Assembly: GCA_964610505.1 (NCBI GenBank)
Contig: CAZSXU010000007.1
Location: 3,594-67,593, forward strand
Direction: 5' to 3'
Length of the DNA: 64,000 bases
From: an uncultured bacterium
Lineage (GTDB): Bacteria > Arandabacterota > Arandabacteria > JAGLYR01
The notes under the pieces are model-generated. The model searched no databases and was not told the origin of the DNA. It was given only the letters and a program-made list of their open reading frames with translations. Shown piece after piece: positions 41,775-55,996 of the stretch. Both the position numbers and the translations under genes were made by a program. How positions within the stretch are numbered: the stretch's first letter is position 1; each line of letters begins with the position of its first letter.

Positions 41775-43178
41775 ATGACGGAGGCTCTCAACGTGCACCG
41801 TGTGGCCATCGGCGCCGATCATGGCGGTTTTCAACTCAAGGAGCAGCTGAAGGCGTATCTCAACTCCAAAGGGTATGGGCTTGAGGACTGCGGGACCTTC
41901 AGCGAGGAAGCGGTCGACTACCCGAAGATTGCCGCGGCCGTCGCCCGGCTGGTGGCCGAAGGGCGTTCGGAGCGCGGCATCATCATCGACGGCGCGGGGA
42001 TCGGTTCCTCCATGGTGGCCAACAAGGTGCCCGGCGTCCGGGCGGCCCTTTGCTATGATGTTTCCTCCGCGACGAACGCCCGAGAGCACAACGACGCCAA
42101 TGTTCTGACCCTGGGCGCACGAATGATCGGGATCGGCCTGGCCCAGCAGATCGTGGATGTTTTCCTGACGACCGACTGTGTGGAGGATCGCCACCGGCGC
42201 CGGGTAGCCATGATTGGGGAGGTCGAGAGCGGCCGTCCTCTGCCCGCCGCACCGGCAACTCCGACGGCGGAAGCGGGCGCCGGAGTTTCTGAGGGGGATC
42301 TGGATCGCATTGCCCGGGAAGTGGCCGCCATGCTCTCCACGGGGGCAGGCCTGTCTGCGGAATCAAAGGAGACCATTTGCGGGGAACTCGTCTGCGGTCT
42401 GTGCGCAGACTGCATCCAGAGGAATCCCGAAGCCGTTCGCGATCTGATCAACGATACGGGTGCCGACCGCATCAGCCTGGGTCCCGGCGGCGAGGGCGTT
42501 CCTAAGGATCTGGCCAAGTACATCGACCACACGCATCTCAAGCCGGATGCCACGGCTGAGCAAATCCGCAAGCTGTGTCGGGAGGCGGCCGAGTACGGAT
42601 TCGCCGCGGTTTGCGTCAATCCGAACTGGGTTCCCCTCTGCCGGGAGGAGCTGGCGGGAACCGGCGTGGCGGTTTGCACGGTGGTCGGGTTTCCGCTAGG
42701 CGCGCACCAACCGGAGGTCAAAGCCCTGGAAGCCCGGCGGGCGATTCGCGAGGGGGCCCGGGAAATCGATATGGTGATCAACATCGGGGCCCTGAAGGGT
42801 GGAGATCATGCCCTTGTCGAGAGGGACATTCGAACGGTGGCCGACGCGTGCCATGAAGGACGGGCGGTTCTCAAGGTAATTATCGAGACGGCCCTTCTCA
42901 CGGACGAGGAAAAGGTCCTGGCGTGCCGGCTGGCGAAAAAGGCCCGTGCCGACTACGTCAAGACCTCGACCGGATTCGCCGGCGCCGGCGCAACCGCACA
43001 CGACGTGTCGCTCATGAGCGGAGCCGTCAGGGGAACCAAGATGGGGGTGAAGGCCGCAGGAGGTATTGGTTCCGCGGCGGACGCCGAGAAGATGATCCAG
43101 GCGGGCGCGACGCGGATCGGCGCCAGCGCGGGAGTGAAGATCGTCAAGGAGTACAAGCAAGTCACGGTTTCCGAGTGA
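41775..43178 (+). CDS. Fusion protein: ribose-5-phosphate isomerase B (RpiB/LacAB) + linker + deoxyribose-phosphate aldolase (DeoC)
   Basis: N-terminal half [14 protein letters not shown]...[10 protein letters not shown] (RpiB). C-terminal half [13 protein letters not shown]...GFPLGA...KVIIET (DeoC with a Schiff-base Lys). The linker carries an amphipathic helix and a [12 protein letters not shown] motif. Confidence 0.85.
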
Positions 43179-43200: not shown

Positions 43201-43821
43201 ATGGACCTGCGATCGTATGTGTTCCTCGACAGCATTCAACCCCAGTACGCCGCTTTCCTGGGAACGGTGGCGCAAGGATTCCTGCCCATCGCGAACATGG
43301 CGTCGCTCTACGTCGAGATCTCGCCGGGAATCGAGATCAATCGAATCACGGATATTGCGCTGAAATCCACGCGAGTGACGCCGGGGATGCAAGTGGTGGA
43401 GCGCCTCTACGGGTTGCTGGAAATTCACTCGGAATCGCAGGCGGACGTCCGGGAGGCCGGCCGGGCGATTCTTCAGGCGTTGAATCTCAAGGAAGAGGAT
43501 CGCTGGAAACCCAGGATTCTCTCCAGTCAAGTGGTCCGCCGGATGGATGATCATCAGACCCAGCTGATCAACCGGATGCGGCACGGGAATATGATCGTTC
43601 CCGGGGAGACGATGTACGTGATGGAAGTCGAGCCGGCCGCCTATGCCGCTCTGGCGGCGAATGAGGCGGAGAAGGCGGCCGAGATCAACATCCTTGAGGT
43701 TCGCGCGTTCGGCAGTTTCGGCCGCGTGTACCTCGGCGGTGAGGAGCGGGACATCGACGTCGGCTGGCGTGCGGCGGTCGGCGCAATCGAATCGGTAACC
43801 GGAAGGGTCGTGAAGAAGTAG
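43201..43821 (+). CDS. BMC shell protein, tandem-BMC-domain (BMC-T)
   Basis: Two BMC-like halves. The second is canonical ([39 protein letters not shown]). Confidence 0.7.
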
Positions 43822-43872: not shown

Positions 43873-44187
43873 ATGGCAGAAGCCCTTGGCATGATCGAGA
43901 CCCATAGCTATGCCGCCATGGTCGAAGCGGCGGACGCGATGGTGAAGGCGGCGAAGGTGGAGCTCGTTCATTATGAGAAGATCGGCGGGGGATACGTGAC
44001 GGCCATTATCCGAGGCGACGTGGCGGCCGTGAAGGCGGCCTGTGACGCCGGCCAGGCCAGTGCGTCCCGTGTCGGCGAGGTTGTCGCCGTTCATGTGATC
44101 GCGCGTCCGCATACGAACATCGATCTGGTGCTTCCGCTGGGCCGCCTCGACCAGGTTCGGGCGGAACTGAAGAAGACGACGAAGTAG
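43873..44187 (+). CDS. BMC shell hexamer protein (BMC-H, PduA/EutM-like)
   Basis: [29 protein letters not shown]...[19 protein letters not shown] is canonical BMC-H. Confidence 0.9.
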
Positions 44188-44281: not shown

Positions 44282-44569
44282 ATGGTTCTGGCCAAAGTGG
44301 TCGGCACGGTTGTCGCCTCGCGCAAAGAGAAGAGCACGGAAGGACTCCGCTTCATGGTCCTCGAGCAGATCGACCTCGACGGCAAGCCCTCGGGAGGGTT
44401 TGTCGTAGCGGCCGACGCCGTGGGGTCGGGTGTGGGTGAAATGGTGCTCTATGCCTCGGGAAGCTCGGCGCGGCAGACTGTAGCGACGGACAAACGTCCG
44501 TGCGACGCGGTGATCATGGCCATTGTCGACCAGTGGGAAGTCGGCGGCAAGACAAAGTACAAGAAGTAG
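44282..44569 (+). CDS. BMC vertex pentamer (BMC-P, EutN/CcmL/PduN family)
   Basis: [13 protein letters not shown]...[19 protein letters not shown] motif. Confidence 0.85.
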
Positions 44570-44738
44570 CCCGGACAATCCATGGAACCCTGCTGCGAGC
44601 AAGACAGGACGAGCCTGAACTGCGTTTCGGAAGCGATTTCGATCCTCGACGGAGCCGGGCTACGCAATCGGCGAAGTCCTATGTAGGCTTGGGGAGCTTC
44701 TGCCATAGGTAGTGTTGGGGTTTGGCGTTGGAGAATTC

Positions 44739-46184
44739 ATGTCTGTGACGTTGTCGGAAGGGCAGATTCGGGAGATCGCACGGCGGGTTGTGGAGTCGCT
44801 GGGAAGATCCGGTGCGCCGCCGACCGCCGCCGGGGCGGCCGCACCCGCGGGAGCCCTGGCCGAAGGCGTGTTTGCGGATGTCGATTCGGCCGCGCGCGCG
44901 GCCGCCGAAGCCCAGCGTTCGCTGGTGGCGATGACCATGTCCCAGCGGGACAAGATCGTTTCCCGAATTCGGCAGGTGATGCTGGATCATGCCGAGGCCC
45001 TGGCGGGTGAGGCTCTGGCGGAGACGGGGCTTGGTCGCCTGGACGACAAAACGGGAAAGAACCGGCTCGTTGCGGAGAAAACTCCGGGGACGGAAGCTCT
45101 TTATCCGACGGCCCGAAGCGGAGATCGAGGGCTGTCGTTGTTCGAACCGGCTCCCTACGGCGTCATCGGGGTCATCACGCCCGTAACCAATCCTACGTCG
45201 ACCATCATCTGCAACACGATCGGAATGGTGGCGGCGGGCAACGGCGTGGTCTTGAACGTCCATCCCTCGGCTAAGACGGTCTCGATCCGAACGGTGAACC
45301 TCATCAACCAGGCCATCCGGGAGGCCGGTGGGCCTTCCAACGTGGTTACCACTCTGGCCGAGCCGACGATCGAATCGGCCCAAGAGCTGATGAAGCATCC
45401 GGGCATCCGTCTCCTGGTCGTGACCGGCGGAGCCGCCGTCGTCAAGGTAGCGATGCAGAGCGGCAAGCGGGCGATCTGCGCGGGCCCCGGGAATCCTCCC
45501 GTGGTCGTGGATGAGACGGCGGATCCGGACCAGGCGGGCCGCGACATTGTCCGAGGCGCATCCTTCGACAACAACATCGTGTGTGTCTGCGAGAAAGAGA
45601 TTCTCGCCGTGGACTCCGTGGCCGACGCCCTCCTGAAATCCATAGGACGTCAGGGAGGGGTTGTCCTCACGGGGGTCCAGCTTCGCCAGATCGAGCGGGT
45701 GCTCTTCCCGCACGACAGGACGCCCGGAAGGCCGGCGGCGGTTGAGAAATCACTCATCGGCAGGGACGCGGGCGTCATCCTCTCCAAGATCGGAGTGAAC
45801 GCGGGGCCGCAAGTCCGGCTGGCCGTGGTGGAAACCGACGCCCAGCATCCTCTGGTGTGGACGGAACAGATGCTTCCCGTCATGCCTCTGGTGAGGGTGA
45901 GAAGCGCCGATGAGGGGATCGACCTGGCTCGGCGCGTCGAGCAGGGCATGAGGCACACGGCCGTGATGCACTCGAAGAATCTGGATCATCTGAGCCGGAT
46001 GGCCAAGGTGATGGACTGCAGCATCTTCGTGAAGAACGGCCCCGCAGTGGCGGGATTGGGTTTCGGGGGTGAGGGCTACTCATCCTTCTCCATCGCGTCG
46101 CCGACGGGAGAGGGGTTGACGGGCCCGAGGCAGTTCTCCAGGGAACGGCGGTGCGTTCTGGTCGATCACTTCAGGATCGTGTGA
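44739..46184 (+). CDS. Acylating aldehyde dehydrogenase (PduP/EutE-like) with an N-terminal encapsulation-peptide-like helix
   Basis: Aldehyde dehydrogenase family core. N-terminus MSVTLSEGQIREIARRVVESL followed by an Ala/Pro-rich linker. GGAG RBS before the ATG at 44739. Confidence 0.9.
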   Translation: MSVTLSEGQIREIARRVVESLGRSGAPPTAAGAAAPAGALAEGVFADVDSAARAAAEAQRSLVAMTMSQRDKIVSRIRQVMLDHAEALAGEALAETGLGRLDDKTGKNRLVAEKTPGTEALYPTARSGDRGLSLFEPAPYGVIGVITPVTNPTSTIICNTIGMVAAGNGVVLNVHPSAKTVSIRTVNLINQAIREAGGPSNVVTTLAEPTIESAQELMKHPGIRLLVVTGGAAVVKVAMQSGKRAICAGPGNPPVVVDETADPDQAGRDIVRGASFDNNIVCVCEKEILAVDSVADALLKSIGRQGGVVLTGVQLRQIERVLFPHDRTPGRPAAVEKSLIGRDAGVILSKIGVNAGPQVRLAVVETDAQHPLVWTEQMLPVMPLVRVRSADEGIDLARRVEQGMRHTAVMHSKNLDHLSRMAKVMDCSIFVKNGPAVAGLGFGGEGYSSFSIASPTGEGLTGPRQFSRERRCVLVDHFRIV

Positions 46185-46807
46185 TGGAACATCCAGCGCT
46201 TGCACTCGTGGAACTGAACAGTATCGCCGCCGGGGCCAGAACGGCGGACGCGATGGCCAAGAAGGCCCCCGTCGAGATCCTGCGTGTGGGGACAATTCAT
46301 CGCGGCAAGTACTTGATCCTGATCGAGGGTAGCGTAGGGGCGGTTGAGGAGTCCTTCGCCGAGGGTCTTCGGGTGGGGGGGGAATCCGTCGTCGATAAGG
46401 TCTTTCTGCCGGAGGTCGATCGGACGGTTCGGGACGCGCTTCTGGGGAATCGACAGACGGGCACGTACGATGCCTTGGGAGTGGTCGAGACCGCCAACGT
46501 GGCGGCCGTGATCGAAGCGGCCGATGGGGGGGTTAAGGGCGCCGACGTCAAGGTGATGGAAGTACGCCTGGGCGATGGGATGGGAGGCAAGGGTCTCGTT
46601 TTCTTCACGGGCAAGGTTCACGATGTAGAGGCCGCCGTGGACATCGCCGTCGAGCGAATCCGGGATCGGCAGACCTGGGTCCAGCAAACGGTCATCCCGA
46701 TTCTTCACGAAGACATGGCGCGGCAGGTGGCGGAATCGACTCGCTTCGGGCCGCGGCGGAGTTCGGGCGGCAGAGCAGCGAGACGGCGGGGCAGCGGAGC
46801 CGATTGA
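46184..46807 (+). CDS. BMC shell protein, tandem BMC domains (PduT-like BMC-T) with an Arg-rich C-terminal tail
   Basis: Two BMC domains (ALALVELNSIAAG..., ALGVVETANVAAVIEAAD...). The start overlaps the AldDH stop (TGATG). Confidence 0.8.
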   Translation: MEHPALALVELNSIAAGARTADAMAKKAPVEILRVGTIHRGKYLILIEGSVGAVEESFAEGLRVGGESVVDKVFLPEVDRTVRDALLGNRQTGTYDALGVVETANVAAVIEAADGGVKGADVKVMEVRLGDGMGGKGLVFFTGKVHDVEAAVDIAVERIRDRQTWVQQTVIPILHEDMARQVAESTRFGPRRSSGGRAARRRGSGAD

Positions 46808-46880
46808 GCGTGTGCACACTCTGCGGTCCCAGGATTGCCGCTCCGCGCTTCTGACGGATGGAACCGGAAGGTGGAATCGA

Positions 46881-47168
46881 ATGCGTCTGGGCCGGGTTAT
46901 TGGGACCGTCGTTCCCTGCGTTGTCTACGAAGGGCTAACGGGTGTTCCGATGCTCATCGTCACGCCGCTGGATAAACGGGGAAAGCCCAAGGGAACCCCC
47001 TTTGTGGCGGCGGATGCAACGCGCATGGCGGGCCCCGGTGAACTCATCTATTACGAAGCTTCTCGAGAAGCCGCCCTGGCGCTCGACCCGTGGTTCGTCC
47101 CTGTGGATCACGCGATCGTGGGCATCGTTGACGGTGTCGAGCGAGACGGCGTGGAGATCAAACCGTGA
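46881..47168 (+). CDS. BMC vertex pentamer (BMC-P), second copy
   Basis: MRLGRVIGTVV...LIVTPLD EutN/CcmL family. ATG at 46881. Confidence 0.8.
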   Translation: MRLGRVIGTVVPCVVYEGLTGVPMLIVTPLDKRGKPKGTPFVAADATRMAGPGELIYYEASREAALALDPWFVPVDHAIVGIVDGVERDGVEIKP

Positions 47169-47437
47169 TCCTCGGGATTGTCAAGGGGACCGTCTACTCG
47201 ACGATCAACCATCCCTTCTACGACAGCCGGCGACTGCTCCTGGTGGATCTCGTCAACCCGAACGGGAGCGAGACGGGAGGCTACCTCATCGCCATCGACT
47301 CGGTCGATGCAGGCGTAGGGGACCGCGTTCTCATGATCGACGAGGGGAATTCCGCTCGGCAGATCGTGGACGATCCGCAGGCTCCACTTCGGTCCATCAT
47401 CATCGGCATTGTGGACGACGTGCAGGTGTCGGCATGA
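47165..47437 (+). CDS. BMC vertex pentamer (BMC-P), third copy
   Basis: MILGIVKGTVYST...GGYLIAIDSVDAGVGDRVL. GTG start overlaps the previous stop. Confidence 0.8.
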   Translation: MILGIVKGTVYSTINHPFYDSRRLLLVDLVNPNGSETGGYLIAIDSVDAGVGDRVLMIDEGNSARQIVDDPQAPLRSIIIGIVDDVQVSA

Positions 47438-47598: not shown

Positions 47599-48303
47599 AT
47601 GAATGCCGCTTGGCACCTCAGGAAAGAGATCGTCGAGTTCGGGCGCAGGGTCTATGAGAAGAATCTCGTGGCTGCGACGGACGGGAACATCAGTGTCCGC
47701 ATCCTGGGGGATCGGCTCCTCATTACGCCGTCGGGATTCTGTCTGGGGGAGCTCAAACCTGAAGACCTGGTCTATGCCGACTTTGAAGGGAGGACACTCT
47801 CCGGGCGAAACGCCCCCTCCAGCGAGCTCCCAATGCACATTGCGGCGTACGAGGAAAGACCCGACGTTCACGCCATCATCCACGCCCACCCACCGGTGAC
47901 CACGGCGTTCACCGTGGCCGGCTACAATCTGGCTCAATGCGTGATTCCGGAGGTTGTCCTGATCTTCGGATGTATCCCCACCACAGAGTATGCAACGCCG
48001 TCATCGGAAGAAGGCCCTCGAGTCATCCGGTCTCTCATCCGGAAGCACGACGCGCTGATTCTCGATCGGCATGGATCCCTTACGGCGGGTTGCAGCTTGC
48101 GGGAGGCGTATCACAAGCTGGAGAAGGTGGAACACTGTGCACAGGTGACCTTGGCCGCTCGCCAGCTGGGTAACGTCAAGACTCTGACGGCGGATCAGGT
48201 AGAGCGTCTCGAAGAGGTCCGGAAGAAGATGGGGCTCGGAAACGGGTCGTCCCTCTGCAATCTCTGCGGAACGTGCGGAAAGTCCGGCCCGGACGATTCC
48301 TGA
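47599..48303 (+). CDS. Class II aldolase/adducin family protein (fuculose-/rhamnulose-phosphate aldolase-like)
   Basis: ATDGNISVR...HAHPP Zn-binding motifs. Confidence 0.85.
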   Translation: MNAAWHLRKEIVEFGRRVYEKNLVAATDGNISVRILGDRLLITPSGFCLGELKPEDLVYADFEGRTLSGRNAPSSELPMHIAAYEERPDVHAIIHAHPPVTTAFTVAGYNLAQCVIPEVVLIFGCIPTTEYATPSSEEGPRVIRSLIRKHDALILDRHGSLTAGCSLREAYHKLEKVEHCAQVTLAARQLGNVKTLTADQVERLEEVRKKMGLGNGSSLCNLCGTCGKSGPDDS

Positions 48304-48913: not shown

Positions 48914-50605
48914 TCAACCGGTCGTCCGATCCGGAACCTGAAGCTTGCCGCTCATCCGCACGGCAATCTCTTTGTGAGCGGCCACGCATTCGCCGAGGAT
49001 CCTCGTCGCCTCCGCCTCGGTTTCCCGGACGAACCGGGGATCGTCGATCCCCGGTAGGTTGATCTTCACGTTGTAGTAGGCGCCCTCTGCGGCTGCGCGC
49101 CCGACCGATGCCGCGACGCCGCCGTCGCTGACCGAGCTCTCCATGCCTTGATCGACGACCTTCCCGGCCAGCTCCATGACCGCGGGAACGCGCCTGAGAA
49201 TCGTGAGCGGCACGAGTGTAGCGTTCCGAGTGGCCTCTTGAATGGCCGCCTCTCGAGCCGCCTTCTCGTCGTCTGTCTTCTTGGGCAATCTCCGGGCCGC
49301 CATGAACTGGTTGAAGGCATGCGTGTCCTGGTTGACCAGGGAGAGGAACTCATCCTTGGCGGCCTGCGCCTCCTCTGCAATCGACGCCATCGCGCCTCGA
49401 AGCCGGACGTAGTCTTTGTTGCCGTGCGTGAGATGAGCCACCATCGACGTGAGCGAGGCGGCCAGCGACCCGGCGAGCGCGGCCACGGACCCTCCTCCGG
49501 GCGCGGGAGAATCCGTGGACAGCTCATCCATGAAATCGGAGACGGGCATCACCGTGAGGTTGACGTCGCCCGCGAACTGGTACTCGATGATCTTCTTCTG
49601 CGGTTCGAAAGGAGTGATCTCACTCATTCCCAGGGATCGCACGGCGATCTTGATCAACTCCTTCTCGGGCACGGCCGGGCACTTGCCCTGCTTGTCGAGG
49701 TAGTACCGTCCGGCCATGAGCATGGCCTCCTTGGGAATGAGGCCCACCAGCTCCGATCCCGTGACCCGCAGGCCGCGCTCGTTGGCTTGCCGGCAAACCT
49801 CTTCGAAGGCTGCGTGGGGCGGCGTCACGTGATAGTTGGTCAGGTTCATGGAGACCTGCGCCGTCTCGAAAGTGTCGAGATACCAGCCTCCGGCCTTGCA
49901 GAACTGGAGTGCGCCGGGGACCTTGACGGCTTTGCCGTCCTTGTCCCGGATGATCTTGCCGGCGCCGTCGCGCTTCGCCCGTCCCTGCTCCCGAATGCTC
50001 AGCGCGATGTCGCGCGCCAACCTCGGATCTCTCGTGTTGAGGTTGATGTTATAGGCAATCAGGAACTCCCGGGCGCCGATCACCGTTGCTCCCGAGCGGG
50101 CGTTGAACACGGGCTCTCCATAGTCCGGGGCCCAGTGAGGGTCCTTGAGTTTCTCCGCCAGCCCTTCGTATTCGCCCTGGCGGATGACGGCAAGGTTCTG
50201 CCGATCCGGCTTCTGCGCCGCGTTCTCATAAAGATAAACCGGAATGGACAGATGCTCGCTGACCCTTTCGGCCAGGCGGTGCGCCATTTCTATGCAGTCG
50301 TCCATGGTCACCCCGGTTACGGGAACGAACGGGCAGACGTCGGTAGCCCCCATGCGAGCGTGCTCGCCGTGATGCCTGCTCATGTCGATGAGCTCGGCGG
50401 CCTTCCGGATGGCGTTGAAAGCGGCATCGACGACGCCCTCCGGTGTGCCGATGAACGTAACCACCGTCCGGTGGGTGTCGGGGCCGGGATCGACGTCCAG
50501 CAGTTTGACCCCCGGCGTATCCGCAATGGGTTTCGTGACGGCGTCGATCACCGCTCGATCTCTGCCCTCGCTGAAATTCGGCACGCACTCGACCAGCTTC
50601 AACAT
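48914..50605 (-). CDS. ftcD: Glutamate formimidoyltransferase / formimidoyltetrahydrofolate cyclodeaminase (bifunctional FtcD-like)
   Basis: N-terminus MLKLVECVPNFSEGRD (formiminotransferase) plus a C-terminal cyclodeaminase domain. Start at 50605; the ORF-track extension to 50830 translates the repeat. Confidence 0.85.
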   Translation of the reverse strand: MLKLVECVPNFSEGRDRAVIDAVTKPIADTPGVKLLDVDPGPDTHRTVVTFIGTPEGVVDAAFNAIRKAAELIDMSRHHGEHARMGATDVCPFVPVTGVTMDDCIEMAHRLAERVSEHLSIPVYLYENAAQKPDRQNLAVIRQGEYEGLAEKLKDPHWAPDYGEPVFNARSGATVIGAREFLIAYNINLNTRDPRLARDIALSIREQGRAKRDGAGKIIRDKDGKAVKVPGALQFCKAGGWYLDTFETAQVSMNLTNYHVTPPHAAFEEVCRQANERGLRVTGSELVGLIPKEAMLMAGRYYLDKQGKCPAVPEKELIKIAVRSLGMSEITPFEPQKKIIEYQFAGDVNLTVMPVSDFMDELSTDSPAPGGGSVAALAGSLAASLTSMVAHLTHGNKDYVRLRGAMASIAEEAQAAKDEFLSLVNQDTHAFNQFMAARRLPKKTDDEKAAREAAIQEATRNATLVPLTILRRVPAVMELAGKVVDQGMESSVSDGGVAASVGRAAAEGAYYNVKINLPGIDDPRFVRETEAEATRILGECVAAHKEIAVRMSGKLQVPDRTTG

Positions 50606-50683
50606 GATGGAGATTACCCTCCTGTGCTCTGGAAAACGGCCGGCACGCAGGGAATTCCGAGGCCGGCGCAGGCTCTGCGGAAG

Positions 50684-51124
50684 GAAGAATAGCGCATTGG
50701 ACAAGAATAGACAATAGACAATGAATGGAAATAGAGAGGTCGGCGGGTTGATATAGAGAAGCGGAGAAGCGGACCGCATTGGAGGAGAATAGACAATAGA
50801 CCGAAATGGTGAAGTCGTCAGGTTCTCCACGACGCCTTTTTCCAGGATCTATTGTCTATTTTCTATTGTCTGCTTCACCATTTCTCTGGGGAACCTAAAC
50901 AGAAAATGGGAGCCAAGTGGCTCCCGAGGTCCGAGGGAAGCGAGGAGAGATTTGAGGATTGGAGGAGAATAGACAATAGACCGAAATGGTGAAGTCGTCA
51001 GGTTCTCCACGACGCCTTTTTCCAGGATCTATTGTCTATTTTCTATTGTCTGCTTCACCATTTCTCTGGGGAACCTAAACAAGAACAGGGAGCCTCATTG
51101 GCTCCCTGTTCTTGTTTAGGTTCC
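50684..51124. repeat. Complex intergenic repeat: AATAGAC iterons, a 180-bp unit in two tandem copies (50781-50960 and 50961-51140, 122 nt identical), and a truncated plus an intact long palindrome
   Basis: GGAGGAGAATAGACAATAGACCGAAATGGTGAAG...TCTATTGTCTATTTTCTATTGTCTGCTTCACCATTTC...GGAACCTAAACA is repeated. A related copy lies at 60952-61167. Confidence 0.85.
51070..51124. terminator. Perfect 25-bp-arm palindrome (GGAACCTAAACAAGAACAGGGAGCC tcatt GGCTCCCTGTTCTTGTTTAGGTTCC): GC stem with flanking A- and T-tracts, like a bidirectional terminator
   Basis: Read directly. The sister palindrome at 61168-61221 has different inner-arm bases that are perfectly compensated. Confidence 0.5.
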
Positions 51125-51270: not shown

Positions 51271-51553
51271 GGAATGCCGGCGTCCGGCCGTGAAGGCCGT
51301 TTGCGGTTTGGGTGAATTCCTCGTTCGCGTTTACAGAGAGAAGTCGGTCGTGAAATGGGCGATTCTTGACTTTCCTCAAACCTGTCGGAACGCCTTCCGG
51401 TGGGGCGCAGGACGCCATCTCCGGGGACGAACGGTATCCGCCGCCGGTGGGAAATGGAAAAAAGGCCCGGAAGAGCCGGGAAAGTGGGGGAGATGACCCG
51501 ACCGGCCACTCTCGGCTGCGAAACCCGCCTCGTGCCTGTTGCGTAGGAGGGCC

Positions 51554-52303
51554 ATGTCTGTTAGTGTGTTGCGCGGCGCGCAAGGAAAGGACGAATACGG
51601 CTTGATACGAACCGTGGATCTCTGCAGGTACTATGGGAGCGGCCCTCAGGAAGTACGGGCGGTGGATCGTGTGAATTTCGCCGTGGAGCAGGGTGGATTC
51701 CTGGGAATCGTGGGGGCCTCCGGATCGGGGAAGTCGACGCTTCTGAATCTCCTGGCGGGGCTGGACTCCCCGACGGCGGGCCGGGTCGAAATCGATGGCA
51801 CGGCGTTGAGCGATCTCACGCGAAGAAACCTTGCAGCCTACCGAGCACGCCGCGTCGGCATCGTTTTCCAGTCTTTCAATCTGATGCCCCATTACACGGC
51901 CGCGGAGAACGTGGAGCTGGCCCTCTACTTCACCGACATCGCCAAAGGGGAACGCCGCTCGCGCTCCCGCGACATCCTGGCCCGCCTGGGGCTCAGGGAT
52001 CGCCTGACGCATCGGCCCGCCGACCTTTCCGGCGGAGAGCAGCAGAGGGTGGCTCTTGCCCGCGCTCTGGTCAAGGAGCCTCACGTTCTCTTCGCGGACG
52101 AACCGACGGGGAACCTGGACCGGAAGAACTCCGAGGACATCGCCGGTCTTCTGACCGAGCTGAATGGGGAGGGGCTCACCATCGTCCTGGCCACCCACGA
52201 CCTCGATATGGCGCGTGTCTGCGCCCACCGCATGGTGCAGATGGAGTACGGGCGGTTGGCGGAAGGCACGGCCGATTCTCAAGGGCCGGGAGACCGTCGA
52301 TGA
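51554..52303 (+). CDS. ABC transporter ATP-binding protein (MacB/LolD type)
   Basis: Walker A GASGSGKST, signature LSGGEQQRVALARAL and Walker B. The start is uncertain; candidates are 51539, 51554 and 51602. Confidence 0.8.
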   Translation: MSVSVLRGAQGKDEYGLIRTVDLCRYYGSGPQEVRAVDRVNFAVEQGGFLGIVGASGSGKSTLLNLLAGLDSPTAGRVEIDGTALSDLTRRNLAAYRARRVGIVFQSFNLMPHYTAAENVELALYFTDIAKGERRSRSRDILARLGLRDRLTHRPADLSGGEQQRVALARALVKEPHVLFADEPTGNLDRKNSEDIAGLLTELNGEGLTIVLATHDLDMARVCAHRMVQMEYGRLAEGTADSQGPGDRR

Positions 52304-53763
52304 ACACGAGGGATCTTCTCTCCATCGCGATCGGCAGTCTTCAGCGGATGAAACTCCGGACTTTCCTCACGGTCTCCGGCGTCATCATCGCCATCGCTGC
52401 TTTCGTGGGCATGTTGTCCTTCGGCGCCGGCATGCAGCAGAGCATATCGAAAGATTTCGACGAGCTGGGACTCCTGTCCACGATCCAGGTCTTCTCCTCA
52501 AGCAACGGCGATGCGTCCGACTCCACCGCCGCTCGGATTCTCGACGATGAAACAGTCGGCCGTCTCGCACAGTTGCCGGGAGTCAACCTGGCGTATCCGC
52601 TCGATGCGTTCCAGGTCACGGTGTCCCTGGCGGACACGCAGGTGAACGTGAGTGCCCAGGCGCTCTCGGGTGCCGCGGCGGGAACGAAATTCTACTCGCG
52701 TCTGGCGGCCGGAACGCCGTTCACTTCCGACGATGCGCGTGAGGCCCTGGTCACGTCGCGGTTGCTCGAGCGGCTGGGACGCGTGGACCCGGATTCCCTG
52801 GTGGGGAAACCGGTGGTTGTTTCGGCCGAGATTGCCAGCCTGGACAGTGGTTTGGTTCACATGTTCCGCGACGCGGACCCCGAAGGCGCCCGACGGCTGA
52901 TGGACGTATTCCTTCCCGGACGCGGCGACCGGAGTGAGGCAAAGGAAATCCTGCAGGCCGAGATGACGAGCGCTCTTCAACGGTTCCTGAACGGTTACAT
53001 GAGAGCGAATGCGGTGGTGACGGACACGCTGATCGTGCGCGGTGTTCTGGATGACCGCATGGGCGGGCCCTGGAGAATTAAGCCGCTTCTGGTTCCGGTA
53101 AGAACAGCTCGACGACTCTCGCCGGGGGATTTTGGCAGCAGTCCTGCGAATCTCTTCGCCTACCTGAACAGCGGTGCGCGCATCGAGCTTGGTGGGGAAG
53201 AGGGGAGCAGGAACTACCCCCATGTGACGCTCAACCTTGATTCGCGTGCGGATCCGAATGTGGTGGCGGACACGCTCGAGGCAATGGGATTCCGCGTGTT
53301 CAGCTATGCCCGCGAGTTTCGCGAAATGCGGAAGTTCTTCCTCTTCTTCGACATGGCACTCGGGGTAGTGGGGTTCATTGCCCTCGTGATTGCCTCCCTT
53401 GGAATCGTCAACACTCTGGTCACCTCGATTGTGGAGCGCAGGCGCGAGATTGGTATTCTCAAATCGCTGGGCGCGGACGAGGGTTACATCCGGGTTCTCT
53501 TCCTTGTGGAATCCGGTACGATCGGCGCGCTGGGTTCCGGCATCGGGATTGTGTTCGGATGGCTGATCACGAGGGTCGCCTCGGTGGCCTCCCGGATCTA
53601 TCTGAATCGCCAGGGGCTCCCGGACATGGACCTCTTTGCCCTGCCGATCTGGCTGATCCTGGTCGGCTTTTTCTTCGGTCTGGGCGTCAGCATTGCGGCC
53701 GGCCTCTATCCGGCTGCTCGGGCCGCCGCAGTCGATCCTGTGGAAGCGCTTCGGAGTGACTAG
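52300..53763 (+). CDS. ABC transporter permease, FtsX/MacB-like (N-terminal TM, large periplasmic domain, three C-terminal TM helices)
   Basis: Topology and FtsX C-terminal motifs. Overlaps the ATPase stop, so the two are co-transcribed. Confidence 0.8.
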   Translation: MNTRDLLSIAIGSLQRMKLRTFLTVSGVIIAIAAFVGMLSFGAGMQQSISKDFDELGLLSTIQVFSSSNGDASDSTAARILDDETVGRLAQLPGVNLAYPLDAFQVTVSLADTQVNVSAQALSGAAAGTKFYSRLAAGTPFTSDDAREALVTSRLLERLGRVDPDSLVGKPVVVSAEIASLDSGLVHMFRDADPEGARRLMDVFLPGRGDRSEAKEILQAEMTSALQRFLNGYMRANAVVTDTLIVRGVLDDRMGGPWRIKPLLVPVRTARRLSPGDFGSSPANLFAYLNSGARIELGGEEGSRNYPHVTLNLDSRADPNVVADTLEAMGFRVFSYAREFREMRKFFLFFDMALGVVGFIALVIASLGIVNTLVTSIVERRREIGILKSLGADEGYIRVLFLVESGTIGALGSGIGIVFGWLITRVASVASRIYLNRQGLPDMDLFALPIWLILVGFFFGLGVSIAAGLYPAARAAAVDPVEALRSD

Positions 53764-53872
53764 AAGATAAGAGACGCAACGCACCAGAGCCCCGATTTGT
53801 TCTGTAATCGTATATGATTATAAGAGGTTAGGAGAGTGAGGGTTTTTTCAGCAATTCGATTTAATCAAATGC

Positions 53873-53901
53873 TTGACTTAATCAATCAATTGATTTATAC
53901 T
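53873..53901 (+). promoter_or_regulatory. Near-consensus sigma70 promoter with an embedded perfect 12-bp palindrome AATCAATTGATT (53884-53895): likely a TetR-family operator
   Basis: TTGACT, 17-nt spacer, TATACT. AT-rich island of about 100 bp directly upstream of the TetR gene and efflux operon. Confidence 0.5.
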
Positions 53902-53954
53902 GGGTGTGTGGGCGTGGATCAGTCAAGGTTGGCCGACCTGCAGGAGGCGGTTCG

Positions 53955-54677
53955 ATGAGCGGCACCCGGCCGGGTGGTCGCAGGCGTAAAGAAGATGAAC
54001 CCGGTGCATTCCGGCGTTTTCTTGAGGGAATCCCTTCTGATCTCGAGGCGCCCCCTTCCGGTAGTCCACCGGGCCGGATTCTCCGGTCCGCCCGGGCACT
54101 GTTCGCCCGTCACGGTTTCGATTCGACAAGCACGCGCGCGATCGCCGAAAAGGCCGGCGTCAATCAGGCGATGATCCATTACTACTTCGGAACCAAGGGG
54201 CGGCTGTATCGGCGAGTGATCTCGCTGGAGATCCTCGACGTCTTTCGCTCCATCTCCGGCGAACTCGAAACGGAAGATCCGCCGGACGCGATCGTGGTGC
54301 GGATTCCGTTGGAGATTATGGGCCAACTCCGCAGTGATCCCGTGCGGCGGAATCTCCTTCGGCGAGAGATCGGCCAGGGCTCGGAGCACGCAGGACAGGC
54401 GGTGATCGCCATGCGTGAGTATGGTCCGCGAGGGTTTCGGAGTTTGCTGACGGCTCTGCTGGAGGCCGGTCAACGTGAGGGTCGATTCCGGTCCCTTCCC
54501 GCGAATGCCGTTCTCCCGTTTCTGCTCAGTGTGGCCTATGGATCGATGATGCTGGAGCCGCTTTTCGAGGTCGTATTGGGCCGGAGTGTCGAGGAAGAAG
54601 ACGTCTGGAACGCGCGCGTGGAGACATTTGAGGCTCTTCTGCGACATGGGCTGCTGGTTGGGGAGAAGGAATCATGA
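53955..54677 (+). CDS. TetR/AcrR family transcriptional regulator
   Basis: N-terminal HTH (RALFARHGFDSTSTRAIAEKAGVNQAMIHYYF). AGGAGG RBS before the ATG at 53955. Confidence 0.85.
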   Translation: MSGTRPGGRRRKEDEPGAFRRFLEGIPSDLEAPPSGSPPGRILRSARALFARHGFDSTSTRAIAEKAGVNQAMIHYYFGTKGRLYRRVISLEILDVFRSISGELETEDPPDAIVVRIPLEIMGQLRSDPVRRNLLRREIGQGSEHAGQAVIAMREYGPRGFRSLLTALLEAGQREGRFRSLPANAVLPFLLSVAYGSMMLEPLFEVVLGRSVEEEDVWNARVETFEALLRHGLLVGEKES

Positions 54678-55996
54678 AAGACATCCGACACCTGAGGTGT
54701 CTCGGCGCCGTACTTCTGTGGTGCGTGGGGTGGGGGGTGGCCGCGGAGGACGGACGAGCCTCCGATGTCTGGACATTGGAGCGCTGTGAACGGGAGGCCC
54801 TGGTCAGGTCCCATGAAGTTGGGGTCGCCGCGTATCGTCTCCAGCAGGCGGAGGCAAGTGCCGACGAAGCCGAGGCCGTCCGGAGGCCGACGCTGTCGGC
54901 CTCCGGCGCCTACACGTACACGAGCGAGACGATGGAACTTGGTCTTCCCGCACTGGGGACGTTCAACCTTCCCACGATTCGTTTCGGTGACGGGAACGTA
55001 TACGACCTCGGCCTGGTCGCGAGCGTTCCCCTTTTCACGGGAGGCGCCCTTCGAAGCAGGGCGCAGGCGGAGCGGGCCGCGTCCCGGGCGGCGCGTCACG
55101 ATCTCGCCGCCGACAGCCTTCAGGTGGTACACGAGGTTCGAACCGCCTACTTCAGAGCCCTTGGGGCCAAGGCGCAGGCGGATGCAGCTCGCGTGGCGGA
55201 GGACCGTCTTCGCCGTCACGTCACAGATCTGGAAGCGGCAATCGAGATCGGTGCCGCGGCGGAAGAAGCTCGTATCCAGGCCCTCTCACGCCTCCGCCAG
55301 GGAGAGCAGAGGCGGTTGCAAGCCGACCTCGGGGCGTCGGTCGAAACGCTGAATCTCGGCAGACTCGTCGGTCGGCCGGGAGAGGAACCGGACCTGCTGG
55401 ACAACCTCAGGCGACCGCTCTTCCTGCACGAGCCGTTCGTGCGGGGAGACAGCGTCGATGGTCGGCCGGAGTTGGCGGCGTTTGACGAGCGAATTCAGCA
55501 GAGCGAGAGGTTGGCCGGGGCAGCGAGGGGGGCGTATTTCCCGACCCTCTCGGCGCAGTTGAGCTACCATCATGCCAAGCCCGGCGTGGATCTGATTGCC
55601 GACGAATGGATGCAATATGCAGCGGCGGGGATTGTCCTCTCGTGGCCGATCTGGGATTGGGGCGCCCGTGCTCAGCGGGTCCGCGGTGCGCGCGTTGCTG
55701 GTCGTGTCCTGGAGGAACAGAGGGCGCTATTGCACGACGCGCTGCGAAACAACCTGGCCGTCGCCCTATCCGCCCTGGCGTCGGCCCGGGAGCAGGCCGC
55801 GAAAGTGGGCGAACGCGCGGAACTCGAACGCCGCCGTCTGGAACTGGTAAAGGGGCGATACAAGAATGCGGCTGCCACGGAGAGCGAACGGCTCGACGCC
55901 GAAGATGATCTGGCCGCGGCAGAGATGGATCTCGCCGCCGCCACGGCGCACGTCCGGTTGGCCGAGGCGGATGTGTTGTACGCCCTTGGACAATAG
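54674..55996 (+). CDS. TolC family outer-membrane efflux protein
   Basis: Signal peptide and two TolC repeat halves. Overlaps the TetR stop. Confidence 0.85.
   Translation: MKDIRHLRCLGAVLLWCVGWGVAAEDGRASDVWTLERCEREALVRSHEVGVAAYRLQQAEASADEAEAVRRPTLSASGAYTYTSETMELGLPALGTFNLPTIRFGDGNVYDLGLVASVPLFTGGALRSRAQAERAASRAARHDLAADSLQVVHEVRTAYFRALGAKAQADAARVAEDRLRRHVTDLEAAIEIGAAAEEARIQALSRLRQGEQRRLQADLGASVETLNLGRLVGRPGEEPDLLDNLRRPLFLHEPFVRGDSVDGRPELAAFDERIQQSERLAGAARGAYFPTLSAQLSYHHAKPGVDLIADEWMQYAAAGIVLSWPIWDWGARAQRVRGARVAGRVLEEQRALLHDALRNNLAVALSALASAREQAAKVGERAELERRRLELVKGRYKNAAATESERLDAEDDLAAAEMDLAAATAHVRLAEADVLYALGQ

What the first reader, a model, noticed from the sequence alone, without database searches (positions are those of the whole stretch)
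42225..42510. RpiB and DeoC fused in one polypeptide, joined by a roughly 95-aa linker with an internal encapsulation-peptide-like amphipathic helix and a CxxxxCxxCxxC motif
Within 41775-43178, residues 1-150 are RpiB and residues 245-467 are DeoC. The linker contains [17 protein letters not shown]. This closely resembles the N-terminal helix of the downstream AldDH (SEGQIREIARRVVESL), which is followed by an Ala/Pro-rich spacer as in known encapsulation peptides. Encapsulation peptides are normally terminal, so an internal one that could target both catalytic domains at once would be unusual. The adjacent [12 protein letters not shown] four-Cys motif suggests a metal or Fe-S site not expected in either parent enzyme.
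Basis: inference. Interest (0 to 1): 0.7.

Follow-up and report, generated by a model that had tools for sequence, protein, structure and literature searches.

The report
Known microcompartment RpiB–DeoC fusion enzyme
This gene encodes the already-described fused isomerase–aldolase cargo enzyme of a sugar-phosphate bacterial microcompartment; its "linker" is the aldolase's own targeting extension trapped inside by a gene fusion, and the only undescribed detail is a conserved but dispensable four-cysteine knot.

Summary
ORF 41775-43178 encodes RpiB (residues 10-150), a 95-residue insert, then DeoC/DERA (246-467). It is the first gene of a nine-gene SPU3-type microcompartment operon.

Axen 2014 noted the fusion. 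Dwyer 2024 described RPI-DERA chimeras in 20 SPU3 loci and proposed that the DERA-derived intra-enzyme helix acts as the encapsulation peptide.

My comparison of 86 related loci supports this:
- 50 loci have separate adjacent rpiB and deoC genes. In the unfused loci I read, DERA starts with the same amphipathic helix.
- The unfused RpiBs carry their own N-terminal helix, which most of the 35 fused proteins lack.
- The helix follows the same motif as the locus's AldDH N-terminal peptide.

The Cx4Cx2Cx2C motif is real. All four Cys are kept in 86 of 121 fused sequences, and four or more Cys occur in 31 of 50 unfused orthologs with other spacings. It has been lost repeatedly. It lies in the extension whose removal left DERA active and able to bind RPI. 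Some members show weak ferredoxin-like matches, but the metal is unknown.

The operon's class II aldolase carries a similar CxxCGxC tail. Interest is low to moderate.

The parts
41775..43178 (+). RPI-DERA chimera ORF (467 aa), first gene of the BMC operon
   Evidence: A 100% identical database protein exists (P0001), and the 120 best hits shown are all fused homologues.
41802..42224 (+). RpiB-type domain (residues 10-150). It has no N-terminal extension. The catalytic Cys is replaced by Asp (D72) and Thr68 by Ala (A74).
   Evidence: Pfam PF02502 E=1.3e-53. D72 is at least 90% conserved. The paper reports the Cys-to-Asp change for all SPU RPIs.
42225..42284 (+). Variable Ala/Pro/Thr-rich spacer (residues 151-170, [20 protein letters not shown])
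   Evidence: Columns are poorly conserved and gap-rich. pLDDT falls to 57.
42285..42338 (+). Amphipathic helix [18 protein letters not shown] (residues 171-188). It corresponds to the N-terminal encapsulation-peptide helix of unfused BMC DERAs, here made internal.
   Evidence: AF2 helix 173-188. Hydrophobic moment 0.64. Conserved pattern. Sits at the start of DERA in the unfused loci I read. Same motif as the AldDH N-terminal peptides.
42339..42377 (+). Second variable spacer (residues 189-201)
   Evidence: Gap-rich, unconserved columns. pLDDT below 50.
42378..42413 (+). Cys knot [12 protein letters not shown] (C202, C207, C210, C213)
   Evidence: The four Cys are 79-88% conserved in fused homologues. 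Unfused orthologues keep Cys clusters with other spacings. The knot has been lost in several nested clades. Some family members give weak Fer4 matches, but the window's own sequence does not.
42414..42509 (+). Conserved extension segment [32 protein letters not shown] (residues 214-245) leading into the barrel
   Evidence: P218 99%, V221 92%, R222 88%, G229 and R232 100% conserved. It resembles the DERA's own C-terminal unit at 435-453 (hhalign P=7.8e-5). It is not modelled confidently.
42510..43175 (+). DERA class I aldolase barrel (residues 246-467) with catalytic D332, K396 and K426
   Evidence: TIGR00126 E=1.4e-83. The closest PDB DERAs align to 245-457. The catalytic residues are invariant in A1.
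43201..43821 (+). BMC-T shell protein (CsoS1D-like, 206 aa)
   Evidence: Weak Pfam BMC match. It is 86-88% identical to orthologues whose records carry PF27545 CsoS1D_N.
43873..44187 (+). BMC-H shell protein
   Evidence: PF00936 E=3e-29.
44282..44569 (+). BMC-P vertex protein 1
   Evidence: PF03319 E=4.3e-27.
44712..46184 (+). Acylating aldehyde dehydrogenase. The likely start is the ATG at 44739. The N-terminal EP helix LSEGQIREIARRVVESL lies at 44751-44801 and is followed by an Ala/Pro spacer.
   Evidence: PF00171. Translation. Hydrophobic moment 0.82. Orthologous N-termini share the motif.
46151..46807 (+). Second BMC-T shell protein (tandem BMC domains)
   Evidence: PF00936 E=3e-34, two stretches.
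46812..47437 (+). BMC-P vertex proteins 2 and 3 (46812-47168 and 47165-47437)
   Evidence: PF03319.
47599..48303 (+). Class II aldolase, last gene of the operon. Its C-terminal tail carries CNLCGTC (48256-48276).
   Evidence: PF00596. The tail motif is present in 79 of 120 homologues, and 35 of those continue to a terminal EP-like helix. The gene sits in the same operon position in L088 and L089.

Best explanation
The ORF is the signature cargo enzyme of an SPU3-type (sugar-phosphate-utilisation) bacterial microcompartment: a chimera of a catalytically degenerate RpiB-type isomerase and an active deoxyribose-5-phosphate aldolase (DERA).

The 95-residue "linker" is the N-terminal extension carried by microcompartment DERAs. 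It consists of a spacer, an amphipathic encapsulation-peptide helix, a second spacer, a Cys knot, and a conserved segment that leads into the barrel.

Inferred history: rpiB and deoC were adjacent genes, each with its own N-terminal encapsulation peptide. Loss of the stop codon between them fused the genes. The RpiB peptide was lost, and the DERA helix, now internal and flanked by two flexible spacers, became the only targeting or aggregation element for both domains. It would drive co-condensation with the AldDH, whose N-terminal peptide follows the same motif, and docking to the shell.

[quoted passage not shown] The AldDH converts the acetaldehyde to acetyl-CoA.

The Cys knot is an accessory, probably metal-binding element between helix and barrel. 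A small Fe-S cluster or a Zn site cannot be told apart here. It is needed neither for catalysis nor for RpiB binding.

Shown here: domain identities, conservation, the fused and unfused series, and the locus context. Inferred: encapsulation function, order of evolutionary events, and metal binding.
For: Domains and operon.

Published description of the same chimera, and of the DERA-derived helix as the putative EP: PMC11585597. The fusion was noted in 2014: PMC4207490.

Comparative series:
- Of 86 loci, 35 are fused and 50 have rpiB directly upstream of a separate deoC. In some of these a single in-frame stop separates the two genes.
- In the unfused loci I read, DERA begins with the helix (e.g. 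MDRQHLIEAVTREVLAALA in L053).
- Unfused RpiBs carry N-terminal helices (e.g. SEAEVRDLVARIVDAVL). In most fused proteins the RpiB core starts 2-20 residues from the start codon.
- Fused forms fall in one clade of an NJ tree of the DERA core, plus one independent fusion, L034.

Helix:
- Predicted by AF2 with a hydrophobic moment of 0.64.
- Its pattern is conserved while the flanking spacers are not.
- The motif LSxxDLxRIAxRIxxLL parallels the AldDH N-terminal motif L[ST]DxQ[IV]DxIAxxΦxxxΦ across loci.

Enzyme cores:
- No solved DERA or RpiB structure contains the extension.
- DERA catalytic D332, K396 and K426 are invariant. RpiB C66 is replaced by D72.
- ΔN-term SPU6 DERA is soluble, active and still binds RPI, whereas the full-length protein aggregates as EP-bearing proteins do.

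Locus: most related loci share the window's gene order.
Against: - No experiment shows that this helix, or any internal one, targets cargo to a shell.
- 29 of the 86 loci show no shell genes in the flanks held (up to 10 kb; some contigs are short) yet keep the helix and the Cys knot. They are fused forms in Phycisphaerales and unfused pairs in Pyrinomonadaceae, Vicinamibacterales and some Anaerolineae. I could not check whether those genomes encode shells elsewhere.
- I had no model coordinates, so I cannot say whether the helix is free or packs on a domain. pTM is only 0.55.
- Residues 189-242 have pLDDT below 50.
- The subtype call (SPU3) rests on architecture and gene order, not on the authors' HMM classification.
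Confidence: 0.78

Rival explanations
1. The helix is not a shell-targeting peptide. It is a structural or oligomerisation element of the DERA extension (for example, holding RpiB tetramers and DERA dimers in a lattice), with a function independent of microcompartments.
For: The helix and Cys knot persist in 29 of 86 loci that show no shell genes in the flanks held. [quoted passage not shown] The helix pLDDT of 70-84 is compatible with packing.
Against: ΔN-term DERA still forms the RPI complex and is dimeric and active. The helix is flanked by unconserved, low-confidence spacers. It shares its motif with the AldDH N-terminal peptide of the same loci. The lineages without nearby shell genes belong to taxa with distal or satellite BMC organisation. 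Non-BMC DERAs lack the helix.
Confidence: 0.12
2. The Cys knot binds an Fe-S cluster (a [4Fe-4S]-type loop) and gives the cargo core a redox or electron-transfer role. This would go beyond a passive structural metal site.
For: Most family members read CxxCGxCxxxAP, or CxxCx3Cx3CP, like single-cluster ferredoxin loops. Sub-threshold Pfam hits to Fer4_13 (best E=5.9e-5), Fer4_15 and Fer4 recur in up to 4 of the 24 members scanned per family. The same CxxCGxC motif occurs in the co-encoded class II aldolase tail. In 7 of 9 same-contig pairs the two motifs are either both present or both degenerate or absent. Compact four-Cys loops can bind [4Fe-4S], as in endonuclease III (my own knowledge).
Against: The window's own sequence gives no Fer4 hit. 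Cys spacing varies widely among orthologues. Some variants substitute C..C..HxxH. Whole clades inside BMC loci have lost the knot. The window has no PduS/RnfC partner, and its shell proteins carry only four scattered Cys. ΔN DERA is fully active. AF2 does not fold the region.
Confidence: 0.35
3. The Cys knot is a structural Zn knuckle or a disulfide-forming loop with no redox role. Alternatively, it is a decaying relic.
For: Spacing is variable and one or two Cys are often lost (14 partial patterns in 121 sequences). His-containing variants exist. There are weak RING-like and DUF1677 hits. The knot has been lost repeatedly without loss of the locus.
Against: All four Cys are kept in 86 of 121 fused sequences, and four or more Cys in 31 of 50 unfused orthologues, across distant phyla. 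This argues against a relic. The ferredoxin-like CxxCGxCxxxAP context argues against a simple Zn knuckle.
Confidence: 0.4

Closest known systems
SPU3 RPI-DERA chimera (e.g. Verrucomicrobia bacterium ADurb.Bin018), Dwyer et al. 2024, Commun Biol, PMC11585597. The fusion was first noted in Marinimicrobia by Axen et al. 2014, PMC4207490.
   Same: The domain order is the same (RPI then DERA). There is no N-terminal EP on RPI. A DERA-derived intra-enzyme helix is proposed as the EP. The BMC locus has the same components: DERA/RPI, AldDH, a BMC-P triplet and BMC-T proteins, plus a class II aldolase in some loci.
   Different: This copy comes from a different, high-GC lineage; the closest named relative is a Candidatus Eisenbacteria MAG at 82% identity. 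The paper does not mention the Cys knot. I find the fusion in far more genomes than the 20 loci reported.
SPU6 DERA of Chloroflexi bacterium GWB2_54_36, with a ~70-residue N-terminal extension (PMC11585597)
   Same: The extension has a similar make-up: an amphipathic helix followed by a poorly modelled segment. Anaerolineales loci that I take to be the same subtype carry a four-Cys cluster at this position (L028, L029, L037, L055). The catalytic D/K/K residues are conserved. It forms a complex with RPI.
   Different: The genes are separate. The helix is truly N-terminal. RPI has its own N-terminal EP. The AldDH EP is C-terminal in SPU6.
Canonical encapsulation peptides (PduP, PduD and EutC N-termini; CcmN C-terminus); Aussignargues et al. 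2015, PMC4594438
   Same: An amphipathic helix of about 18 residues, set off from the catalytic domain by a poorly conserved spacer and absent from non-BMC homologues. The cited paper attributes the aggregation of full-length SPU6 DERA to this extension.
   Different: Here the helix is internal, with spacers on both sides, and is followed by a Cys knot. Targeting has not been tested experimentally.
Free-living DeoC and RpiB (E. coli DeoC and RpiB; PDB 8qps, 3he8)
   Same: The folds are shared, and for DERA the catalytic residues as well. phmmer E-values are 3e-80 for the DERA part and 1.5e-39 for the RpiB part.
   Different: They have no extension and are separate proteins. The RpiB catalytic Cys66 is Asp here and Thr68 is Ala.
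Single-cluster ferredoxin cluster-binding loop (Pfam Fer4_13, Fer4_15)
   Same: The CxxCGxCxxxAPxx[VF] pattern is present in many members of the extension family. The hits are marginal.
   Different: All hits are below the curated thresholds. There is no ferredoxin fold and no distal Cys-Pro ligand; instead a fourth Cys lies 4 residues upstream. The window's own motif ([12 protein letters not shown]) gives no hit.

Membership tests
SPU-type bacterial microcompartment locus | A DeoC-family aldolase (PF01791) and an RpiB-family protein (PF02502) encoded next to shell genes | tested here: met
   Both domains lie in ORF 41775-43178, 23 bp upstream of the first shell gene.
SPU-type bacterial microcompartment locus | An acylating aldehyde dehydrogenase together with BMC-H, BMC-T and a triplet of BMC-P shell proteins | tested here: met
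   AldDH 44712-46184; BMC-H 43873-44187; BMC-T 43201-43821 and 46151-46807; BMC-P 44282-44569, 46812-47168 and 47165-47437.
SPU-type bacterial microcompartment locus | Assignment to subtype SPU3 by the authors' shell and enzyme HMM clustering | not testable with these tools
   Indirect evidence only. Chimeras are reported only in SPU3, and a CsoS1D-like BMC-T occurs in SPU3.
Encapsulation peptide (EP) | Amphipathic alpha-helix of about 15-25 residues | tested here: met
   AF2 helix 173-188. Hydrophobic moment 0.64, rank 14 of 454. The hydrophobic pattern is conserved.
Encapsulation peptide (EP) | Joined to the catalytic domain by a poorly conserved, flexible spacer | tested here: met
   Residues 151-170 and 189-201 are variable and gap-rich, with low pLDDT.
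Encapsulation peptide (EP) | An extension absent from homologues that are not associated with microcompartments | tested here: met
   All solved DERA structures and the Pfam/TIGRFAM models start at about residue 245.
Encapsulation peptide (EP) | Located at the N- or C-terminus | tested here: not met
   The helix is internal here (residues 171-188 of 467). It sits at the start of DERA in the unfused orthologues I read, so its position is a consequence of the fusion.
Encapsulation peptide (EP) | Sufficient or necessary for packaging cargo into the shell | not testable with these tools
   Only indirect evidence: the extension makes SPU6 DERA insoluble, as other EPs do.
Deoxyribose-phosphate aldolase (class I, EC 4.1.2.4) | Schiff-base Lys and the catalytic Asp/Lys (E. 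coli D102, K167, K201) | tested here: met
All three are invariant in 82 sequences. TIGR00126 scores 279.5 bits against a cutoff of 117.3.
Ribose-5-phosphate isomerase B | Catalytic base Cys66 (E. coli numbering), together with Thr68 | tested here: not met
   C66 is D72 and T68 is A74. H99 is retained as H105. D72 is at least 90% conserved. SPU6 RPI showed negligible R5P isomerase activity. The fold and family membership are clear (TIGR01120 scores 157.3 against a cutoff of 138.65), but canonical activity is doubtful.
4Fe-4S ferredoxin-type cluster-binding domain | A match to a Fer4-family model above the curated threshold | tested here: not met
   The window's extension gives no Fer4 hit. Up to 4 of the 24 relatives scanned give sub-threshold hits to any one Fer4 family (best Fer4_13 E=5.9e-5).
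4Fe-4S ferredoxin-type cluster-binding domain | Bound Fe-S cluster | not testable with these tools
   Needs metal analysis or spectroscopy.

The most novel reading that the evidence does not exclude
The Cys-rich element is a previously unrecognised part of the encapsulation module in this BMC type. It lies between the EP helix and the enzyme core in DERA (EP-Cys-core), and in mirror order in the operon's class II aldolase (core-CxxCGxC-EP). It binds a metal or Fe-S cluster that either cross-links or orders cargo during core assembly, or makes packaging sensitive to redox or oxygen. A corollary: EP- and Cys-bearing RpiB/DERA pairs encoded away from shell genes in Acidobacteria would be the missing signature enzyme of the uncharacterised ACI microcompartment.
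Probability: 0.2. Interest if true: 0.6.

Novelty: new member of a known kind. Interest (0 to 1): 0.3.

Why it matters
The fused enzyme and its internal targeting helix are already in the literature, so this window mainly adds one more clear example from another lineage. The comparative series assembled here is independent sequence-level support for the published idea that a gene fusion turned a terminal encapsulation peptide into an internal one. The series consists of separate genes with two terminal peptides, then fusion, loss of the RpiB peptide and retention of the DERA helix. This is useful for people who engineer cargo loading with multi-domain fusions.

The part that could matter more is the conserved Cys knot beside the helix, together with its counterpart in the aldolase tail. 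If it binds a metal or Fe-S cluster, cargo assembly in one of the most widespread but least understood microcompartment types would have a cofactor-dependent step. That might also explain why full-length SPU DERA is insoluble when expressed aerobically in E. coli.

Tried and rejected
- A word-indexed search with the extension alone (residues 165-250) returned nothing, and that search was wasted. The exhaustive profile search succeeded instead.
- In that profile search, the multi-stretch hits to long proteins were ankyrin-repeat proteins in the two I inspected (P0129, P0148). They match only NPExVRxLIxxGADxN. I rejected them as homologues.
- AlphaFold2 with an 82-sequence alignment did not fold residues 189-242 (pLDDT below 50). 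The geometry of the four Cys, and whether the helix is free, could therefore not be assessed, and no coordinates are returned.
- PDB sequence and profile searches found nothing covering residues 153-243.
- I looked for a redox partner. The window has no PduS/RnfC homologue. The six shell proteins carry only four scattered Cys, none in the two BMC-T proteins.
I rejected this because of strong conservation at 171-188 and 202-245.
- I considered an assembly or frameshift artefact and rejected it.
- A literature search for "internal encapsulation peptide" phrases was uninformative.
Full report
**1. Observation**

ORF 41775-43178 (+) is an uninterrupted 467-codon frame. Pfam LacAB_rpiB covers residues 10-147 (E=1.3e-53). 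The NCBIfam deoC equivalog TIGR00126 covers residues 246-457 (279.5 bits against a cutoff of 117.3).

The quoted peptides are present:
- [18 protein letters not shown] at residues 171-188.
- [12 protein letters not shown] at residues 202-213.
- MSVTLSEGQIREIARRVVESL, followed by an Ala/Pro-rich spacer, at the start of the downstream AldDH.

The two helices share 8 of 17 identical positions.

**2. Locus**

The ORF is the first gene of a compact same-strand operon:

| Order | Gene | Coordinates |
|---|---|---|
| 1 | RPI-DERA chimera | 41775-43178 |
| 2 | BMC-T (CsoS1D-like) | 43201-43821 |
| 3 | BMC-H | 43873-44187 |
| 4 | BMC-P | 44282-44569 |
| 5 | AldDH | 44712-46184 |
| 6 | BMC-T | 46151-46807 |
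| 7 | BMC-P | 46812-47168 |
| 8 | BMC-P | 47165-47437 |
| 9 | Class II aldolase | 47599-48303 |

The closest relatives have the same nine-gene order (L088 and L089). Most of the 80 species-representative genome loci I fetched share genes 1-8. This is an SPU (sugar-phosphate utilisation) microcompartment locus. The fused signature enzyme points to subtype SPU3.

**3. What is already published**

- Axen et al. [quoted passage not shown]
- Dwyer et al. 2024 (PMC11585597) report an RPI-DERA fusion in 20 SPU3 loci.
[quoted passage not shown] This is the N-terminal extension (an amphipathic helix plus two poorly modelled strands) found on all SPU DERAs.
- They further show that all SPU RPIs have Asp in place of the catalytic Cys and that the SPU6 RPI they assayed has negligible isomerase activity. 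The ~70-residue extension makes SPU6 DERA insoluble. The ΔN-term DERA is soluble, dimeric, active on deoxyribose-5-phosphate, and still binds RPI.

The paper's text never mentions cysteines, iron or zinc in connection with the extension.

**4. Independent comparative test**

I classified 86 loci: 79 from the genome scan and 7 from protein look-ups.

- 35 loci encode the fusion.
- 50 loci have rpiB immediately upstream of a separate deoC. In some of these a single in-frame stop and a few codons separate the two genes.
- One locus is cut at the contig end.
- In the unfused loci I read, DERA starts with the helix. Examples are L053 MDRQHLIEAVTREVLAALA, L055 KTVEQLVEIITREVLVAM, and the Pyrinomonadaceae sequence NGDFEQLVEQITDVIYARL.
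- The unfused RpiBs carry their own N-terminal amphipathic helix plus spacer. Examples are L053 SEAEVRDLVARIVDAVL, L055 DDELQQIVQRVVAQLMG and L071 SESEVREVVRRVVAGL.
- In most fused proteins the RpiB core begins 2-20 residues after the start codon. In the window it begins at residue 9-10.
- An NJ tree of the DERA core places the fused forms in one clade. L034 (Terriglobia) is a separate, independent fusion.
- The AldDH N-termini of these loci follow L[ST]DxQ[IV]DxIAxxΦxxxΦ. This is the same class as the DERA helix consensus LSxxDLxRIAxRIxxLL.

The picture is coherent. Two adjacent cargo genes each had a terminal peptide. They fused, the RpiB peptide was lost, and the DERA peptide was kept and is now internal.

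**5. Anatomy of the insert**

Conservation over 120 fused homologues (57-82% identity; Eisenbacteria, Phycisphaerae, KSB1, Zixibacteria and others) divides the insert into five parts:

| Residues | Feature | Conservation |
|---|---|---|
| 151-170 | Spacer | Variable, gap-rich |
| 171-188 | Amphipathic helix | L/I171, S/T172, D175, R/K178, I/V179, I183, L/M186 at 85-100% |
| 189-201 | Spacer | Variable |
| 202-213 | Four Cys | 79-88% each |
| 214-245 | Conserved segment | P218, V221, R222, G229, R232, P237, G238, P243 at 83-100% |

AlphaFold2 (82-sequence alignment, mean pLDDT 85.5, pTM 0.55) models both enzyme domains confidently. It predicts a helix at 173-188 with pLDDT of about 70-84. Residues 189-242 stay below 50. 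The helix hydrophobic moment is 0.64, 14th of 454 windows. No solved structure covers residues 153-243.

DERA catalytic residues D332, K396 and K426 are invariant.

**6. The Cys knot**

It is not a chance feature.

- All four Cys are present in 86 of 121 fused sequences.
- Nine more sequences have CxCCx3Cx3C.
- Fourteen keep one to three of the four Cys, most of them three.
- About twelve replace the region with C..C..HYGH or similar.

A profile of the extension searched against 1.84 billion representative proteins finds 271 proteins. They include unfused ~300-aa DERAs with the match at their N-terminus and four or five Cys in other spacings (P0164, P0240, P0161, P0238).

Across the 86 loci, 44 have at least 4 Cys in this region and 26 have 0 or 1. 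The Cys-less forms sit in nested subclades, so they are secondary losses:
- Woeseiaceae.
- Acidimicrobiia, which keep the following segment.
- Thermoanaerobaculia, Lentisphaerae and Verrucomicrobiota, which have deleted the whole Cys-plus-NPExVR..GADRI module but kept the helix.

All 26 low-Cys forms lie in BMC loci.

Many members read CxxCGxCxxxAPxxV or CxxCx3Cx3CP. Scanning 24 extensions against Pfam gives recurrent sub-threshold ferredoxin hits: Fer4_15 in 4 members, Fer4 in 3, and Fer4_13 in 2 (best E=5.9e-5). The window's own motif gives no Fer4 hit. RING-like and DUF1677 hits also appear.

The published ΔN construct shows that the extension, which in related Anaerolineales DERAs includes a four-Cys cluster, is needed neither for catalysis nor for RPI binding. 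I conclude that the knot is an ancestral, accessory, probably metal-binding element. Fe-S and Zn cannot be distinguished here.

**7. A parallel in the last gene of the operon**

The class II aldolase ends ...LTADQVERLEEVRKKMGLGNGSSLCNLCGTCGKSGPDDS.

- Among 120 homologues, 79 carry CxxCxxC in the tail, and 77 of those read CxxCGxC.
- 35 of the 79 continue through a spacer to a terminal EP-like helix, for example VVDVVVEEVLRVL.
- The arrangement core-Cys-EP mirrors DERA's EP-Cys-core.
Six of nine pairs have CxxCGxC in both proteins. One pair has a degenerate motif in DERA and none in the aldolase. Two pairs have it in DERA only.

This is suggestive. It is not proof of a shared function.

**8. 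Loci without shell genes**

29 of the 86 loci show no shell genes in the flanks held (up to 10 kb; some contigs are short) but keep the helix and the Cys knot:
- Fused copies in Phycisphaerales (L003-L007).
- Unfused pairs in Pyrinomonadaceae/Blastocatellia and Vicinamibacterales.
- Some Anaerolineae.

This weakens the EP reading but does not overturn it, for two reasons. Sutter et al. 2021 describe EP-bearing PF01791 genes located away from HO loci. They also describe the ACI microcompartment of Acidobacteria subdivisions 4 and 6, which has no identified signature enzyme and whose AldDh lies on a satellite locus. I could not scan those genomes for shell genes.

**9. Mechanism and rivals**

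Best-supported model (confidence about 0.78): this is an SPU3 signature enzyme in which active DERA is covalently joined to a catalytically degenerate RpiB scaffold. The DERA-derived helix, flanked by two flexible spacers, is the sole encapsulation or aggregation element. The Cys knot is an accessory metal site.

Rivals:
- The helix is an oligomerisation element unrelated to shells (about 0.12).
- For the Cys knot: a redox-active Fe-S cluster (about 0.35), or a Zn, disulfide or relic site (about 0.4).

**10. Verdict**

The feature is real and correctly read, but it belongs to a described family.

New here:
- The explicit fused and unfused series.
- The breadth of the fusion. Of the 86 loci classified, 35 are fused, as are all 120 best protein hits shown.
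- The conserved but dispensable Cys knot, and its counterpart in the aldolase tail.

Interest is 0.3. Novelty: a new member of a known kind.

Noticed in passing
window 47599-48303 (Cys motif at 48256-48276); proteins P0271-P0390; loci L088 and L089: The operon's class II aldolase has a C-terminal tail with CNLCGTC. Of 120 homologues, 79 have CxxCxxC there (77 read CxxCGxC). In 35 of those the tail continues through a spacer to a terminal EP-like amphipathic helix. The order core-Cys-EP mirrors the DERA order EP-Cys-core. The cited papers do not mention this.
   Followed up: partly
window 42429-42488 (residues 219-238) compared with 43077-43133 (residues 435-453): The conserved extension segment [20 protein letters not shown] aligns, profile to profile, with the DERA's own last beta-alpha unit [19 protein letters not shown] (hhalign P=7.8e-5, probability 62%). 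The extension may derive from a partial duplication of the barrel's C-terminal unit. Ankyrin-repeat proteins also match this segment, so convergence on a helix-turn motif is possible.
   Followed up: partly
L035, L039, L042, L045, L052, L054, L056, L057, L060, L066, L069, L072, L080, L083, L085-L087 (Acidobacteriota): Pyrinomonadaceae, Blastocatellia and Vicinamibacterales encode adjacent RpiB and DERA genes. Both carry EP-like N-terminal helices, and DERA has a Cys knot. No shell genes lie in the flanks held (up to 10 kb). These are the taxa of the uncharacterised ACI microcompartment, which lacks a known signature enzyme. DERA might be its distal cargo.
   Followed up: partly
RpiB N-termini in L019, L026, L034, L035, L039, L040, L042, L043, L045, L046, L049, L051, L052, L054, L056, L057 and L060: Many unfused RpiBs, and the independently fused L034, carry an extra module of about 45 residues between the EP helix and the RpiB core (ITEDDVRGLxxGxxLRIxxxAxLTPLAxDIVxExxIELV). 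The only Pfam hit is a weak one to PF15953 PDU_like (E=0.11). Its function is unknown.
   Followed up: partly
L003-L007 (Phycisphaerales; GCA_964385225.1, GCA_022360095.1 and Logan contigs): Here the fused RPI-DERA has a CxCCx3Cx3C variant of the knot and an intact helix. It sits among unrelated genes (DUF72, MreB, peptidases), with no BMC genes within 8-10 kb.
   Followed up: partly
L001 13759-17380: In this relative's locus, an Rnf/Nqr-type complex (RnfC, RnfD, an FMN-binding subunit, and an RnfB-like Fe-S protein) lies immediately downstream of the SPU shell genes on the opposite strand. The window has no such genes.
   Followed up: no
window 44712-46184 and 46151-46807: The longest AldDH ORF starts at GTG 44712. 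The EP helix follows the ATG at 44739, which is the more likely start. The AldDH 3' end overlaps the longest ORF of the next BMC-T gene by 34 nt. The first BMC-P of the downstream pair (46812-47168) likewise has about 23 extra N-terminal codons before the Pfam match, so several annotated starts in the operon are uncertain.
   Followed up: no
window 48914-50830 (-) and 51539-55996 (+): Immediately after the operon come a convergently oriented formiminotransferase-cyclodeaminase gene and a MacAB/TolC-type efflux cluster (ABC ATPase, FtsX-type permease, TetR regulator, outer-membrane factor). These appear to be ordinary neighbours that mark the end of the BMC locus.
   Followed up: no
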